Origin: Raillietiella orientalis
Taxonomy: Eukaryota
NCBI GenBank assembly: GCA_036172245.1
Contig: JAYWIR010000013.1
Span: 372,001 to 436,000 of the forward strand
Reading direction: 5' to 3'
DNA length: 64,000 bases
Under the pieces are notes generated by a model that worked only from the letters and a program-made list of their open reading frames with translations, had not been told where the DNA came from and did not search any database. The position numbers and the translations under genes were made by a program. This document shows positions 4,153-20,712 of the stretch, piece by piece (position 1 is the stretch's first letter; each line of letters opens with the position of its first letter).

Positions 4153-4615
4153 CAGGTGTGTCAAACTCAACCGCGGTCCACTTAATGCGACTGGCAAGAT
4201 TCACGTGGGCCACATGACATTTACAAGTTTTCTTAAAATACAAAAAATAGGGGTTTAGTATAAATTTTAAAAATTCAAATAACCGCAAGTACTTACATTT
4301 TTTTTAAATGAGTTATAAAACAAATACATCCTACAAATCTTAGACACGCCGATCGAGACAAAGAAACTAGCGCAAATGCCTTTCATTAAGATTCGTTAAA
4401 TCAACAAAAACTCGGATTATATTTAACGCTGCATTTGGACTTTGTCTCCCCCGGTTGACCAGTGCATCATAGCACATGACATGGCAACGACTCGACGGTT
4501 ACTTGCTATTTCATTCGTAACATATGCTTCTGTTTTTTCATTTTATTTCAGAGCATCGCGGGCCACATAAAATCACATCGAGGGCCACATGAGGTCCGCC
4601 AGTATGACATCCCTG
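4153..4615. mobile_element. Non-autonomous hAT (Charlie-like) DNA transposon / MITE, 463 bp
   Basis: TIRs CAGGTGTGTCAAACT (4153-4167) and AGTATGACATCCCTG (4601-4615) are 12/15 complementary. Perfect 8-bp TSD TCTTACTA at 4145-4152 and 4616-4623. Subterminal GGGCCACA repeats; no transposase. Confidence 0.9.
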
Positions 4616-6489
4616 TCTTACTAGAACACATGCCCTTTTTCCGAATGAATGGGACATCGCCGGGTATGTTTATTGTGCAAAAACAAAACGAAATGAATTT
4701 CGTAGCAACTGCATTTTCTTGATTTCTCATCGAAATCAAACTACTTCGATCCCTTCATTAAGGGCAACATACGACTTCTACTGCACCGAGATGACAACAT
4801 GAAAGATTTTGAATTAGCCCATGGTTATTTATCAGTACATGCTTATTTATTCCATCTTGTTAATTCCTTTTTTCAGTCTATTTTCCTCTAGCAAAGATGA
4901 TTTGAAGTTCTTAGATTACATTTCTGAAACTTTGGATGACTAATCCAAAATACGAACTAGTCTCAATCACCAAAGACTCGTTCGGCTGAATTTAGGTTAC
5001 CTTGACCTTAAGAAATTCCATCATATAGCATAATTTCAGGTAGCCATTGGTTTTCTAAGCTATTAATTAGCTGCTATGATTGGGATGTGTTTTCGGGAGG
5101 CATTTGTTCCTTTGCTGATTTTCACCAGCTGATGATATGGAGGGTACGTTGGAAAAATCTCTAAACACTTGTTTCTGAGTTATTATGGAGTATACGAAAA
5201 TTTTGCTTTAACTGTAGTGCATTTCTCCAGGCGCACCATGAAAATCTGTCTTTCTTCATTATGAATGCGAAAGCGAGAAATTCATTTGGTTGAAAGCAGT
5301 CGAAGAACTTTTCCAACATTGTTTTCTTATTTCTATTTATTTCTGTTTTTCTCGAATGCCACGTTCTGCTGATGATTCATGAATTTCAAGTCTGTAACCT
5401 AATGTTCCGCGAGCTACTGTTTTTTGCATTTCAGTAGAAACCCAACGAAAACAAACCTTGCGACTGGCTCTACCTTGTTTATTTGTTTGTGCATCTGTAT
5501 TGTCTCCTGCATCCCAAAAGTAAATTGCAAGCAGTTATTTCACGTGTGCGTGCCGCGGAATCGGTCGCGATGATACTTTCTAACCTAATCTCCTTTTGTT
5601 ATTGATGTTTCGTTATGGCAATACTTACAAGTCCATGAAAACTTGGTAAGTTCCAAGTTTGGTAAATAGAAAGTTATTTCTGGGCATCAAAGATGTTACG
5701 TTGATGAAGTGTAATCTTCTTAAGCTTAAATACTTAATTAATTCAAAGATACTGTTCAAAGACACTGATAAAAAAAACTGTTTGGGATTTTACTCGAAAA
5801 GTAAGTTATTTACACGATCAACATCTAATGTCAAGGTTGCGTAACATCGCATTAGTGATTCAAAGTAATCAAAACGTTCTGAGAAGGCAGTCTTAGGAAT
5901 TAAAGGAGGAATTTCCTAAAATCAAGAATCATGGCAGTGAAATCAACAAAAAATTATAAAAGCCAAGAAACAAGACTCTATATCCAGGTTGAACCTTTAT
6001 CTTTGGATCCGTGGAAGAGAGCAACAAGAGAAAGAACGTGATTTCTAAGTACAAGGGGAGAAAAATTGCAGTTCAGATGTGGAAATCAAAGACGCAGTTT
6101 GCCTGTGCTACCAGTTTTGTTTTCAACAAAGAAGGTCTTCTCAAACGAAACGCTGTTTTTAGCACATTACCAGAGTAGATCCTAGTATAGGAAGCATTAG
6201 AACATATTCAAAGAAAAATTAATATAGTAATGTTTTCAAATATAATATATTCAAAGGAATAGTAATATATTCAAAGGAAGAGAACCTTTCATTCCAACGC
6301 TGCAGCTGACCTAAATTTCACCTGCTTTGCCGGTTTCCTCAAGGATGTTTAGGGCTATTGCAAAAGAAATGATTCAGAAAGTTTTCAAAATAAAAAATTA
6401 AAATTCTTCAAGCCCTAGACCAGAACAAGCCCCTGACTCGCCTGACTCCTCCTTAAGTACCCTGTCACCCTCCAACAGTCAAATCAGCC

Positions 6490-6507
6490 AATAAAATGCT
6501 TTTATTA
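6490..6507. terminator. Back-to-back viral polyadenylation signals overlapping the stop codons
   Basis: Plus-strand AATAAA at 6490-6495 contains TAA 6492-6494. Minus-strand AATAAA at 6506-6501 overlaps the cap stop at 6507-6505. Confidence 0.7.
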
Positions 6508-7413
6508 CGTATACATGCCTACATCTCTACTATGTTTGAAAATCAAATACAAATTTGGGTTATTCTGTATGTAGGAAAACCCTTATTTAAAGTTCCTTGC
6601 TTTGGTCATACACCTCTCTGGAAGTTATCTTTCAACTCATCAGGGATGTCAATTCTTGACATATGCTTCAAAATATGCACCCTACTACATCCAAACTGCA
6701 TATCCGTTTCCACATCCACACCTCTTCCACTTCCACTATCTATCCACGGACATCGCACGTACTTCGAAATAAGCACATTGCCCATCGTATCCATAAGCTC
6801 CAAGTACGCTCCAGAATACCAACGAACGCCACGTACTCCAAAATACTTAAACCAACAGCCAGCGGCTTCTTGGTACGCTGCTGTACTCGCATTAATTTTC
6901 TCGTCTTCCACATTCCATGGCTTCCCGAAAAACTCAGGGCGATTCGCGCTTTGTACCAATGCTACATTTCGATAAGACACCTTCATCCCTAACTCCTCGG
7001 CCATATTTCCGACAGATAATCCTAATGTCAAAAGTTTCACCTTTAACGCAAGACCTTTTCACTTTCACATATCCGAAATACCTTGCCATTTGCTCGAAGT
7101 TCAATAACTTCAATAACTCCGATAATTTCCAATACTGCTCGAAGTATGTAAACATCCACGAACAATTTATAGCATCACCATCCATAACCATCTGCGAACT
7201 ATAGTGCGTAGCTTGCAACAAGCCAGATCGTTCCACCACGCGAGTTACTTTGCCATACTTCCAACGAGGGTTCCTAATAATTCTCATACACCTACGCTTA
7301 GGATTAAACCTACGTCGCCTCTTGTACGTATTGTATCCTTTACGAACTAGCCTCTTTCGCTTTGAGACGTACGACGCCTTCCCTAACTTCCGCTTTCGGG
7401 AGTGATACGACAT
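6505..7413 (-). pseudogene. cap: CRESS virus capsid protein (frameshifted)
   Basis: Arg/Lys-rich N-terminus MSYHSRKRK..YKRRRRFNPKRR; FEQMARYFGYVKVK, KYVRCPWIDS and C-terminal YRIT/LYLIFK segments typical of circovirus-like capsids. Frameshifts near 7040 and 6555; internal stop at 6606-6608. Confidence 0.82.
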
Positions 7414-7655
7414 AGATACTACCATTCGGCTGCTTGACAACCTACTGCCATTTTTTCCATATCCCCCCACCCCTTATTACTCCGACCCGGGTGGTGGTGA
7501 GCTACGCCCACCCGACTTACCAGATTCTTCCACGAGATCGGGTTACACCAGCCACAAAAAACTGGAAGCCCTCAAGGCTTTCCGCATACTTCAAGCCCCT
7601 CACGATTGCGGACTTTCGCCACATGGCCACTATCGCGTTGCCAAGATCGGTTACT

Positions 7656-7687
7656 CAGCAATCTGGGTAATACTCGCCAGATTGCTG
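7656..7687 (-). other. Rolling-circle replication origin stem-loop
   Basis: Perfect 11-bp stem CAGCAATCTGG/CCAGATTGCTG. The loop carries nonanucleotide GAGTATTAC (NANTATTAC) on the minus strand, 7675-7667. Iteron-like AGATCG(G)GTTAC at 7535 and 7644. Confidence 0.93.
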
Positions 7688-7712
7688 CGCCACAAACTAC
7701 CCACTTACGGAG

Positions 7713-7720
7713 TATATAAA
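7713..7720 (+). promoter_or_regulatory. TATA box of viral rep promoter
   Basis: TATATAAA lies between the ori and the rep ATG (7779). Confidence 0.55.
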
Positions 7721-7778
7721 CCACCTAAGACGACCGAGCCACAGTCATAACCTTCAGTGAATTTCAGCAACCACCACT

Positions 7779-8705
7779 ATGCCTTACGGTCTTTTCTTTA
7801 ACTGGTGTGTTACATTCAGTAATTACACAGAAGAAGAATTCGTTAAAATTAAATCACGGTGTCGCAGCAACCGCAAATTCTGCGTTTTCGGATGTGAAAC
7901 CGCATCCACCGGTACTCCGCACTTACAAGGTTACATGCAACTCAAAGAGCCAAGAACCCTGCCAGGACTACACAGGAAACCGTTCACCAAGTCACATTTG
8001 GAGAAAAGCCGCTGCACAGCACTTAAGGTACTGCACCAAACAAGATAAAACTGCTTGCACTTACGGTGCAATTTCAAATGCCGATGAACCAACATCATAC
8101 GAACAGGTTAGTCACGTGACCGCATTCTCATGCCTAACCCATTTCTCTTTCAGATTCTCGAACTCTTCGAATCTGGCGCAGAGGAAAAACTTATACTCAA
8201 AAATCTTCCAAAATTCTACGCCAGAAGCATTAACTTCGTCAAAGAATGCTTTCGGTTATCCAGGAATCGCACCCACACAATCGCACCCCCTAGCGAATCT
8301 GCGCCTCAGAAAATGACAGATGGATATATTCGACATTATTCGCAAACCACCAAGTGAAAGAATCATATACAGGTTCTATGATACGATAGGCAACGCAGGC
8401 AAAACAAGGCCAAGTTCTTATACTTGAAAAAAGGAGCCATTTACATGCACTCTTGCCGGAAAGCAGATGCAGCCCATATGTATCATGGTGAATCCATTAT
8501 AGTGGTGGACTTCACAAGAGACAATCAAGAGCGTGTACAGTACGGATTTATAGAGTCCCTCAAAAATGGCATCGTTTTCGACTCGAAGTATCAGGGATCT
8601 ATCAAATACTTTGACACACCCCACACCTTCATATTTGCCAACTGGGAACCTGATTACTCCAAAATGAGTTCCGACAGATGGGTTGTCAAGAACATTTCCA
8701 GACCC
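7779..8705 (+). pseudogene. rep: CRESS Rep (HUH endonuclease + SF3 helicase), spliced, with 3 frameshifts and 1 stop
   Basis: Motif I WCVTFSNY, motif II TPHLQGY, motif III YCTK; LRK*Q (probably WQ); Walker A GNAGKT (8389-8406); Walker B IIVVDF; motif C IFAN; SSDRW. Confidence 0.92.
8107..8153 (+). other. Putative 47-nt spliceosomal intron in rep
   Basis: CAG|GTTAGT donor, CTAAC branch point at 8134-8138, TTTCTCTTTCAG acceptor. Removal joins ..TSYEQ to ILELFESG.. in frame. Confidence 0.75.
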
Positions 8706-11700
8706 ACAGAGAGCCATAATACATCGTGGACTATGAATGAGGAAGGATCCATTCTCTTATATTTCGGAAAAGGTATCGATGATCAACAGCGATTCTGTCA
8801 ATATTATCTCAGTGAATTTACTTTCAATGACTTATACCCGGAATTGTCAAGAAAGTGACAAAGAGGGACTTTCATTCCTGAGTTCAACAAGGAGAGCGAC
8901 AACAAGTGTTTAGTGCAGAAGTATGCCCCCTTTGTTGCTCATGACGTGAAAAGAAACCTTAGCAACGCAGAAATGTAATTTATGACCTCAGGGATTCCAG
9001 GACAGAGCATCCTGTGAGCTATGAGATCTGAAATCGTTGGTGAATTTCAACTGTATGAGGCGAAACTAGGGAATCGACAAATTCTTTGTAAATCCTGAGT
9101 AGCTGCTTTCATATTTCTTTCATTCGCTTTCCACACTAAATTAAGGGCTACTCTTTGATGACATCCATCCAAGCAGCTTTCTAATTCAGACCAATGGAAG
9201 GTAGTTGACGCAAAGGTTTAAAATCACATAGGATCATAGACATATCTGCATCAGAAGTGGGTGCTCGCTTAATTGCTTCCTGTGTATATCCGTAAATGTG
9301 CAATCACGTCATACCATGAAAGGGAAAAGTGATCGTAGTTAATGCATTCATTCGTTGAGGTCATTCTGCATCTGTTTCATCGTTAAACTACAGAGGATCG
9401 TAAATCGTATCAAAACATCACGCATTCTTCAAATTCAATCAAAGTTTTCCAGGGAGGATGAAGGATTTGGCTTATTATAGTTGAAAGCACAAATTCATGT
9501 ATGGCAGAGAATTTGAGCAGAGGTTTTGAGCAGAGAATGACTGGATTATTGTAACCTTGTTTTATCTTCGATTCTCCAGATCTTTTGGAACTATGATACG
9601 ATATTTATAAGAAGGGCATGCTGCTCAATGAACATGTTGGTTAAAACAACTGGAGATCAAAATACGAAGAGTCACGACGTTAGGAGTACTCAGAAATGGT
9701 ATTCGGTCTGACATAACTGCAACAGTGTAGCGATTCTCATGAACTGTTTCGACTGATTACAAGTGCCAATGAGTCACTGGTTTTTTAATTTCTTTTAATT
9801 CCTTGCAAAGAGAACCATTTGTGTGGGCAGGGATAAATACGTTAATTCTCCGTTAATGTTGTTTACGTTAATACGTTAATGTTGCTTCCATTCAATCTTC
9901 ATGTTGCTTCCCTTTCCTATCTGGTCCTTCTTTGTGCCTACACCTCGTTTCTGGACGCATACAGATCTCTCATGGGCAGTGGTGCTATTCCTGTTTATTT
10001 TGTCCGTAGATTCATCATCGTTCTAGCGTCTTCACGAGCGGAAATTCTCAGTGTTCCAGTTACTATTAGGTACGATCAGCATGAAAGCAAACACAGAACA
10101 TCAAACATATCAGCATGTCAGGAGAGAACAGCAGAATTCTACAATGTGACGGTTTGATTTTATAGATTCGATGACACGCAAAAGCCACTTGGTGGTACTG
10201 CCTGAGACGAATTCTCATTTTGCATGCCCCAGTCCTTTTGTTTCACTTAAATCGAAACATAGACACAGAGTTTCTGACAGATCAGGCAATGATTATGCCC
10301 CAGCAAAATGACTTGTCCCTAGATGGAAGTCGGAATGCGAAAGTGATCAAACTGCTTTTTACCGAGATGCTTTCCTCTCCGTTGAAGTTGTGAGTTAAGA
10401 CGTATCATGATTAGAGAACATTTAACACACCTCTTTAAGATTTTTCCATAGAATTGAAAACTTGTTCTTTCCCTGTCTTGCTGAAAATTATTCAGGTGAT
10501 ATCGGGCCACGCGTAGTCTTGGAATTCTTTTTAGAAGCCACTATCATCCCATTTTCAGTTTAGATAACTGTTAAATTATTGTTTCCAATATTTTTCATGC
10601 GTTTGAAGAAAAAAAAAGGAAAGTCTAGCATCGGAATCTCAAAGGGTTACCCCCATCTACTGCACTTCTTCTATTTGTATGAAGGAAGCAAGCAAAGAGT
10701 TCCTGTACAGCATATATCGTTAACAGTTCTGAAAGCAATTTCAAATAACAGGGAAGGAGAAAAAACGGGTACTGAAGAGCGAGATGTGAAACGAATGAGA
10801 TAGCAGAAGCTGAAGTAGGCGAAGGAGGAGCAAAGAGAGTTCCACTTGAGGAGTGTGAGAGAGTCTGCTCTATTGAGCAGTTTCCAAGGATACCACGGTC
10901 ACGGGCTTCTGAGGATTAAACGCTCAACAAGTCAGCAGAGATGCTCGAAAGAGAATGCAGTGGATTAATGAAACAGCCTTTACTGACGTGACTCATCCTT
11001 GCTTTGCAGTTGTTGTTTTTTTCATCAAAGATTCTGGCTTGGATACATTTAAAGGGGGCTGCAATCATTCATATATATTTTTAGATGCACATGACAACGG
11101 ACTGCATGCGAAATTTCCATGGATAGTATTCTGGAGCTACAAGACGAATCGGAGTTTCCTTTGGTTACTGTGCACGTGAGGAAGACGGCAGTTCCATTAA
11201 GAGGGAATCGAGAGTGAAATCGGCAACGCACTTGCAAACTTCCCTTCCTTTGCAAGTTGTGGAACGACCACGCACAAACACCGTTCGATTTTCACCTTTT
11301 GACAGTCATTCTGCTTCTTTTGTGGAACCTGCATTCCAATTAATCCCGTGTTCACAACGAATGCCCCGAAGAACTCCTCAGGCACGGCCGCCAATAAATT
11401 CAGTCCACATTGCCACCGATGTCCACGCGGTTTACGCGAAACAACCTTAAGAGAATTCCAAACGGAAATTCATTTCGTTTGCTAGTTTTTCATTCAAATA
11501 GTCGATGTGCGATTCAATGATGATACTAAATCTGCGCTGGACTTCCGTCTTAAGATCGTATCCGAAACCGAACTGAAAGCAAATGAAAGTGATGTTTCTC
11601 AACGAGAAAGAAATGGAACATATGAATAGCGATGAAGAGTGATTTCAGTGTGTACGAGAAATAGTAGAGTTTAATTCTAGAAGAAGAAATGAAAATCAAA

Positions 11701-20596: not shown

Positions 20597-20712
20597 GCAC
20601 ACGCTTCGGCTGTACATATACTAAAATTGGAACGGTACAGAGAAGATTAGCACGACCCGTGTGCAAGGACGACACGCAAAATCGTGAAGCGTTCCACTAA
20701 AAACAAAAAAAA
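20597..20712 (+). ncRNA. U6: U6 snRNA retroposed copy (probable pseudogene)
   Basis: Full-length U6 match (ACATATACTAAAATTGGAAC, ACAGAGAAGATTAGC, GACACGCAAAATCGTGAAGCGTTCCAC). A-rich tail instead of a T-run; flanking direct repeat AAATCCAT at 20588-20595 and 20710-20717. Confidence 0.9.

What the first reader, a model, noticed from the sequence alone, without database searches (positions are those of the whole stretch)
6402..8705. Whole CRESS-DNA virus genome integrated, apparently linearised inside the rep 3' end rather than at the origin
Seen: cap, ori, TATA, rep and both stop/polyA signals are present. Rep similarity ends at ..DRWVVKNIS (~8700). At the opposite end, a plus-strand frame NSSSPRPEQAPDSPDSSLSTLSPSNSQISQ* (6402-6494) stops inside AATAAA, directly facing the cap stop. 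Inference: this is the missing Rep tail, so circularising 8705 to 6405 rebuilds a ~2.3-kb genome. The ori is intact and internal, which argues against Rep-nick-mediated integration. Endogenous CRESS elements are more often rep-only, so a full genome would tie this lineage to a host.
Basis: partly seen in the sequence, partly recalled or inferred. Interest (0 to 1): 0.82.

Follow-up and report, generated by a model that had tools for sequence, protein, structure and literature searches.

The report
Near-whole circular virus fossil in animal
Almost one full copy of a small circular DNA virus, now broken by mutations, sits in an animal chromosome with its replication origin in the middle, which marks the animal as a likely host of a poorly known virus group but is a known kind of viral fossil.

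Summary
A ~2.3-kb segment (about 6406-8725) between host genes (dynein, diacylglycerol kinase) carries an ambisense CRESS-DNA layout: Arg-rich capsid-like gene, origin hairpin with GAGTATTAC on the capsid strand, TATA box, and Rep (Pfam Viral_Rep 4e-11; helicase at most 52% identical to free relatives). Both genes are broken. The origin lies over 1 kb from both borders, so the circle was opened elsewhere. [quoted passage not shown] Homology cannot show this: relatives' tails are unconserved, and Rep's frame also stays open to 8858. No reads or host genome were available. Best mechanism: host break repair captured a once-broken double-stranded circle; no target duplication or poly(A) was seen. 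An off-origin break is the null expectation, and whole-genome cressdnavirus insertions are published (carp, krikoviruses). The scan already noted similar fossils, a similar Rep intron and a nearly whole virus elsewhere in this genome. Verdict: new member of a known kind.

The parts
6406..8725 (.). Whole virus-derived segment, about one genome length (~2.3 kb); each border uncertain by some tens of bases
   Evidence: composition change points in 8 of 9 models; seven free relatives with a convergent capsid gene have 2,127-2,351-nt units
6402..6494 (+). 30 open Ser/Pro-rich codons ending in TAA inside AATAAA; probable displaced Rep tail (inferred)
   Evidence: virus-like composition, 0 of 460 host windows as high in order-0 models; only one of the three + frames is open; no homolog
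6490..6507 (.). Back-to-back poly(A) signals forming a 7-bp inverted repeat and holding both stop codons; likely shared terminator of convergent genes
   Evidence: read directly; 0 such patterns in 24,300 nt of flank; similar stop layout in L014
6505..7425 (-). Capsid-like gene, ~306 codons, Arg/Lys-rich N-terminal arm; broken (frame change near 7060, stops and a further frame change between about 6580 and 6610)
   Evidence: Atlas score 0.91 to a cluster with 29% Circo_capsid members; profile score 11.3 bits, arm-driven
7426..7778 (.). Long intergenic region between the diverging genes
7656..7687 (-). Origin hairpin, 11-bp stem, nonamer GAGTATTAC at 7667-7675 on the capsid-coding strand; intact
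   Evidence: fold z -3.16; 90-94% match over 31-34 nt to origins of three free CRESS contigs
7713..7720 (+). TATA box upstream of Rep
7779..8106 (+). Rep first exon: HUH endonuclease domain (motifs I-III); frame change near 8020
   Evidence: Pfam PF02407 4e-11; PDB Rep 7kii E 6.7e-8; profile positions 11-121
8107..8153 (+). 47-nt intron-like stretch (GTTAGT donor, CTAAC branch motif at 8134, pyrimidine tract, CAG); splicing inferred, not observed
   Evidence: short introns in the same linker in 2 of 101 free relatives with a whole Rep
8154..8705 (+). Rep second exon: linker and SF3 helicase (Walker A, B, motif C, ending DRW); broken between about 8280 and 8316 and near 8410
   Evidence: profile positions 117-312
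8706..8858 (+). Open continuation of the Rep frame; host-like composition beyond ~8730; rival candidate for the tail, probably flank
   Evidence: no homolog

Best explanation
A dead endogenous CRESS-DNA virus. [quoted passage not shown] Its double-stranded replicative circle was broken once, in the 3' tail of rep just past the helicase. Host double-strand-break repair (end joining) then ligated it into intergenic DNA. Shown: the layout, the internal origin, the host context, decay of both genes, and no target-site duplication or poly(A) tail. Inferred: that the captured molecule was double-stranded DNA, that 6402-6494 is the Rep tail (~75%), that the intron belonged to the living virus, and the repair pathway. 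The element now makes no working protein; any function would be at the RNA level and is not shown.
For: Promoter region, origin, both genes and an unspliced intron are present together, as in DNA but not in an mRNA. The origin is intact and over 1 kb from both borders. No duplicated word beyond chance at the borders: 5 nt, reached by 1613 of 2000 shuffles; 7 nt in wider zones, 146 of 200. The nearest LINE RT lies at about 23 kb, over 14 kb away. For the tail: among 43 convergent genomes out of 80 relatives, a Rep-strand AATAAA within 20 nt of the capsid stop occurs in 0 of 26 with intergenic gaps >=60 nt but in 2 of 13 with gaps <=15 nt. One of the two is L014, whose Rep stop is inside AATAAA 8 nt from the capsid stop after a 28-residue tail. 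In-frame stops and frame changes in both genes argue against a fresh contaminant. No near-identical free virus was found.
Against: No reads, no empty site and no sister copy could be examined. A 30-codon open frame arises in 7679 of 20,000 shuffles of that stretch. Its viral score is weaker in higher-order models (6-71 of 460 host windows reach it) and one of 9 models puts the borders at 6504 and 8841. Half of the long intergenic regions of relatives (13 of 26) are as G+C-rich as their genomes, so composition does not separate tail from intergenic DNA. The repair pathway leaves no positive mark here; it is reached by exclusion. The capsid has no significant homolog.
Confidence: 0.62

Rival explanations
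1. Same fossil, but 6402-6494 is the short intergenic region and not coding; the Rep tail was lost at the break or is the open stretch 8706-8858. The circle was still opened far from the origin.
For: 26 of 43 convergent relatives have gaps >=60 nt between the stops. Rep's frame is open to 8858. 34 of 152 tblastn alignments run past 8702. One composition model puts the right border at 8841. Many relatives have tails of 12 residues or fewer (33 of 152).
Against: 0 of those 26 have a Rep-strand AATAAA next to the capsid stop, as the window has. 8705-8884 scores host-like in 8 of 9 models.
Confidence: 0.17
2. Rep-initiated or rolling-circle capture of a longer-than-unit (tandem) intermediate, later trimmed by deletions to the present one-unit, origin-internal remnant.
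For: Tandem whole-genome insertions exist in carp (PMC6372831, passage), and geminivirus-related elements occur as direct repeats with origins (PMC5014472, passage).
Against: No second copy of any part in the 64-kb window (blastn and tblastn). Two independent deletions would have to leave almost exactly one unit.
Confidence: 0.1
3. LINE-assisted insertion (reverse transcription of viral RNA, or L1 endonuclease target priming), as proposed for other copies in this LINE-rich genome.
For: L1-like RT copies fill 23-57 kb of the window. An A-rich run with a TTAAAA word lies at the left border. CVe-LINE association is published for carnivores (PMC6372831).
Against: No target duplication, no poly(A) tract, no LINE sequence at either border. 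The intron is retained and both promoters and both strands' genes are present.
Confidence: 0.06
4. Assembly artefact: a free circular virus in the sample was joined into a host contig.
For: No reads could be listed. The segment keeps a virus-like CpG ratio (0.98; free relatives 0.68-1.06; flanks 0.78-0.84). Frame changes could be sequencing indels.
Against: In-frame stops as well as frame changes in both genes. No terminal overlap, as collapsed circles show. The flanks are themselves hardly CpG-depleted. The scan holds 18 other CRESS-related notes on this genome (unchecked).
Confidence: 0.05

Closest known systems
[quoted passage not shown]
   Same: Highest summed Rep score among 248 fetched loci; helicase 45% identical; ambisense, nonamer on the capsid strand, Rep stop inside AATAAA a few bases from the capsid stop, short tail; name from P0158, identical to the L014 capsid; lineage
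   Different: 2,127 nt, TAGTATTAC (PMC6186406 passage); continuous Rep with no intron; no significant capsid similarity; not the window's neighbour in either Rep tree; free virus, not integrated
Whole-genome krikovirus (Draupnirviridae) insertions in reptiles and insects (PMC10193959)
   Same: Paired Cap and Rep integrated as whole genomes (17 of 36 Cap-like elements), decayed by stops, used to tie a lineage to a host (passages)
   Different: Different Rep lineage (inferred from the helicase motifs; krikovirus Reps were not compared here); there the insertions are dated by orthologs, here no ortholog is at hand
Endogenous circoviral elements (CVe), including tandem complete genomes in carp and golden-line barbel (PMC6372831) and invertebrate CRESS-type elements (PMC6069186, PMC3198968)
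   Same: Germ-line fossils of Rep-encoding circular ssDNA viruses; mostly rep only (302 Rep against 3 capsid in PMC3198968; all new ones rep-derived in PMC6069186)
   Different: Single permuted unit and not a tandem; helicase is not of the circovirus type; intron in Rep
Spliced Reps of mastreviruses, genomoviruses and some unclassified CRESS viruses (families recalled; intron-marked genomes in PMC6186406)
   Same: Short spliceosomal intron between endonuclease and helicase
   Different: Rep is not geminivirus-like; in free relatives L068 and L059 the introns end near profile position 110, about 7-9 codons upstream of this one

Membership tests
Cressdnaviricota (CRESS-DNA viruses) | Rep with N-terminal HUH endonuclease (motifs I-III) | tested here: met
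   Pfam Viral_Rep 4e-11; PDB Rep matches; broken near 8020
Cressdnaviricota (CRESS-DNA viruses) | C-terminal superfamily-3 helicase | tested here: met
   profile of 31 relatives scores 161 bits over positions 207-312, Walker A in the adjoining frame; 19 of 32 alignment members hit Pfam RNA_helicase, the window piece itself does not
Cressdnaviricota (CRESS-DNA viruses) | Stem-loop origin with NANTATTAC-type nonamer | tested here: met
Cressdnaviricota (CRESS-DNA viruses) | Jelly-roll capsid protein | tested here: inconclusive
   Arg-rich arm and Atlas 0.91 (recognition below threshold); second half 0.81 and uninformative; profile without arm 36 of 300 shuffles, second half 18 of 300; folds pLDDT 32 and 39
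Cressdnaviricota (CRESS-DNA viruses) | Circular single-stranded encapsidated genome | not testable with these tools
   only the integrated linear form is at hand
Endogenous viral element | Flanked by host DNA in an assembly | tested here: met
   dynein heavy chain 3/7-like exons, diacylglycerol kinase exons and LINE RTs, U6 copy
Endogenous viral element | Junctions confirmed by reads, PCR or an empty site | not testable with these tools
   no genome held; no run listed
Endogenous viral element | Decay after insertion | tested here: met
   stops and frame changes in both genes
Anicreviridae (Mulpavirales) | Rep falls in the family's clade (criterion recalled; no defining paper found) | tested here: inconclusive
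   L014 ranks first by summed score, but trees of each Rep half (236 and 167 rows) place the window elsewhere on long branches with weak support; only one named member was available
Anicreviridae (Mulpavirales) | Genome plan like the member seen: ambisense, ~2.1-2.3 kb, nonamer on capsid strand | tested here: met
   one member only
Circoviridae (cyclovirus-like plan) | Circovirus-type Rep along its whole length | tested here: not met
   the profile matches the 314-residue solved Rep 7lar (recalled as porcine circovirus 2) only over positions 7-158 of 330, not over the helicase
Circoviridae (cyclovirus-like plan) | Nonamer on the capsid-coding strand (cyclovirus trait, recalled) | tested here: met
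   shared with many unclassified relatives, so not diagnostic

The most novel reading that the evidence does not exclude
This is the most complete fossil of an unclassified, intron-bearing virus lineage in or next to Mulpavirales (the nanovirus order) that truly infects an animal, probably an arthropod, and has entered its germ line many times. It would give the first whole-genome host link for Anicreviridae-like viruses and, with its sister copies, a within-genome map of break points that tests whether such viruses integrate at random or by Rep nicking.
Probability: 0.3. Interest if true: 0.6.

Novelty: new member of a known kind. Interest (0 to 1): 0.38.

Why it matters
Most cressdnavirus lineages have no known host (PMC10193959: 14 of 57 had one, passage), and endogenous copies are the usual way to assign one. 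A copy that keeps capsid, origin, promoter, intron and terminator records the whole genome plan of a lineage with no close free relative (Rep at most about 52% identical in the calls made). It also shows one integration that did not use the origin. It does not reveal a new mechanism: whole-genome insertions and spliced Reps are known, and a random break would miss the origin almost every time.

Tried and rejected
Whole-genome search: no genome held. Sequencing runs: none was listed, so no reads were laid. Single-protein scans of viral contigs with the helicase and with both capsid pieces found no relative. Word-index protein searches gave 1 hit for the helicase and none for the second capsid piece. 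Pfam found no family for the capsid pieces, PDB only a chance hit. Single-sequence folds were unusable (pLDDT 32.2 and 38.7), so no fold search was run. Capsid profiles from 28 clusters of relatives' ORFs: only one cluster (7 capsids; 5 hit Circo_capsid below cut-off) gave colinear weak matches; hhalign probabilities 11% and 2.6%; a second candidate clade gave none. Tail homology: 0 of 151 proteins and 0 of 248 loci at E<1e-3 for either candidate tail. A 5-letter word shared by the border zones was rejected as chance. Motif III-to-Walker A spacing did not discriminate intron in or out (120 or 104 codons; relatives 104-126, n=76). Rep trees did not resolve the family. Pfam on 81 flank frames found only a BED finger. 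Scan look-ups by sequence and for relatives showed nothing. Literature: 9 searches; none of the listings or passages read described an endogenous Anicreviridae element or break points of whole CRESS insertions, but the library lacks most subscription papers and no supplements were read.
Full report
Context. The window is animal DNA. Axonemal dynein heavy chain 3/7-like exons lie at 0.4-2.5 kb. Diacylglycerol kinase exons with C1, RA and accessory domains lie at 59-63 kb; that domain set is the animal theta type, by my recall. L1-like reverse transcriptases fill 23-57 kb and a U6 copy sits at 20.6 kb. CpG is depleted in gene bodies (0.21 and 0.52) but not between genes (0.78-0.84), the mosaic pattern I recall for invertebrates. 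Earlier scan notes call the host an arthropod; I did not test that. No genome and no sequencing run were available.

What is there. On the plus strand Rep starts at 7779 behind a TATA box at 7713. Its first part hits Pfam Viral_Rep at 4e-11. Its helicase part has 4649 relatives at E<=1e-3; among the 150 listed the best is 51% identical, and among 80 viral contigs 52%. A profile of 31 relatives, built without the window row, places five separately scored pieces in order along the gene. Breaks fall near 8020, between about 8280 and 8316, and near 8410. A further frame change is a 47-nt stretch at 8107-8153 with donor, branch motif and acceptor; the pieces on either side meet near profile position 117, so the stretch is an insertion (two weak matches, E 0.0065 and 0.032). 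Short introns in the same linker occur in 2 of 101 free relatives with a whole Rep; 159 loci were examined, 98 continuous, 3 split, 58 partial or of another family. Splicing is inferred. The origin hairpin (7656-7687) is intact, with GAGTATTAC on the minus strand, and nearly the same stem occurs in three free circular CRESS contigs whose helicases are of another type. On the minus strand a ~306-codon gene with an Arg/Lys-rich start runs from 7425 to 6505 and is broken in several places. It is very likely the capsid by position and arm, but sequence support is weak. The Atlas gave 0.91 to a cluster with 29% Circo_capsid members, with recognition below threshold. A profile of 11 related capsids gave 11.3 bits (0 of 300 shuffles), but only 1.0 without the arm (36 of 300) and -0.9 for the second half (18 of 300).

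Borders and permutation. Markov models of viral core against host flank put the left border at 6406-6437 and the right at 8707-8733 in 8 of 9 models; the ninth gave 6504 and 8841. The segment is thus about 2.3 kb, within the 2,127-2,351 nt of seven relatives with the same plan. No part of it is repeated in the window. The origin is about 1,260 and 1,050 nt from the borders. The circle was therefore opened between helicase and capsid stop, whatever 6402-6494 is.

Is 6402-6494 the Rep tail? Homology cannot say. Tails after DRW in 152 alignments range from 5 to over 200 residues (median 29.5) and are unconserved. Neither 6402-6491 nor the open continuation 8703-8855 matches any of 151 proteins or 248 loci at E<1e-3. 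Layout speaks for it. Of 80 relatives, 43 have a convergent ORF of 200 codons or more; 9 of the 43 have the Rep stop inside AATAAA. A Rep-strand AATAAA within 20 nt of the capsid stop is seen in 0 of 26 genomes with long gaps and 2 of 13 with short gaps. [quoted passage not shown] The stretch scores viral (0 of 460 host windows in order-0 models, 6-71 of 460 in higher orders), while 8705-8884 scores host-like. Against: an open frame of that length arises in 38% of shuffles, and relatives' intergenic regions are not reliably A+T-rich. A rough combination (prior 1:2, about 4-fold for the signal, 2.6-fold for the open frame) gives 75-85%; I state 75%. A 5-letter word shared by both border zones is no more than chance (1613 of 2000 shuffles). 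The exact junction stays open.

Mechanism. The element keeps both promoters' region, the origin, genes on both strands and the intron, so it came from DNA. There is no target duplication, poly(A) tract or adjoining LINE. A Rep nick would put a border in the hairpin loop (established rolling-circle biology, recalled), and it is not there. I commit to capture of a once-broken double-stranded circle by host end joining (0.62), reached largely by exclusion. Rivals: a non-coding 6402-6494 (0.17), a trimmed tandem (0.10), LINE action (0.06), misassembly (0.05). The off-origin break is not surprising: the hairpin is 32 of about 2,310 bases, and Liu et al. note that no integrase activity is known for these viruses (PMC3198968, passage).

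Comparison with what is known. The element is a member of Cressdnaviricota by Rep and origin. The helicase is not circovirus-like. The best named relative is in Anicreviridae, order Mulpavirales, but trees of each Rep half did not group the window with it, so family membership is undecided. Rep-only fossils do dominate: 302 against 3 in PMC3198968, and all new elements in PMC6069186 (passages). Whole genomes are nonetheless published: tandem complete circoviruses in carp (PMC6372831, passages) and krikoviruses, with 17 of 36 capsid elements paired with Rep (PMC10193959, passages). Invertebrate elements are spread across the CRESS tree (PMC6186406, passages). I also saw single passages of PMC6668415, PMC13475009, PMC11945456 and PMC5014472. 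No paper was read whole and no supplements were read; supplementary element tables of these papers may list comparable cases. The scan itself holds 18 matching notes on this genome, among them 46- and 48-letter Rep introns and a nearly whole virus; these are unchecked leads.

Verdict. Real, well-preserved and correctly spotted, with an added intron. A new member of a known kind; interest 0.38. It rises to about 0.6 if proper phylogeny places the lineage in or beside Anicreviridae and reads confirm the insertion, since that would tie a hostless group to an animal.

Noticed in passing
window 4153-4615: Non-autonomous hAT-like DNA transposon (MITE): 15-nt imperfect terminal inverted repeats and a perfect 8-bp target duplication.
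   Followed up: partly
window 5588-5686 (-): BED zinc-finger remnant (Pfam E 4.5e-4, at cut-off), probably a decayed transposase about 0.7 kb left of the virus.
   Followed up: no
window 6239-6279: 20-nt tandem duplication about 130 nt left of the viral border.
   Followed up: no
window 20597-20703: U6 snRNA copy (Rfam 84.5 bits) followed by an A-run at the edge of the LINE block; possibly a retrocopy.
   Followed up: no
window 21000-58000: 37-kb G+C-rich (55-66%) block of decayed L1-like elements in a 30-42% G+C background.
   Followed up: partly
window 8706-8978 (+): Rep's frame runs on for about 90 codons with a single stop; no family or homolog found.
   Followed up: partly
L006:1354-1385, L007:113-146, L008:1754-1784: Free CRESS contigs with a different helicase type share the window's origin stem almost letter for letter, hinting at a shared or exchanged origin and endonuclease module.
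   Followed up: partly
L068 and L059: Free CRESS contigs whose Rep is split by one (L068) or apparently two (L059) short intron-like stretches between endonuclease and helicase.
   Followed up: partly
L025, L041, L060, L076, L077, L079, L080, L081, L085: A group of ~1.95-2.07-kb ambisense CRESS contigs whose Rep and capsid stop codons overlap by 4 nt and in which no standard nonamer hairpin was detected.
   Followed up: no
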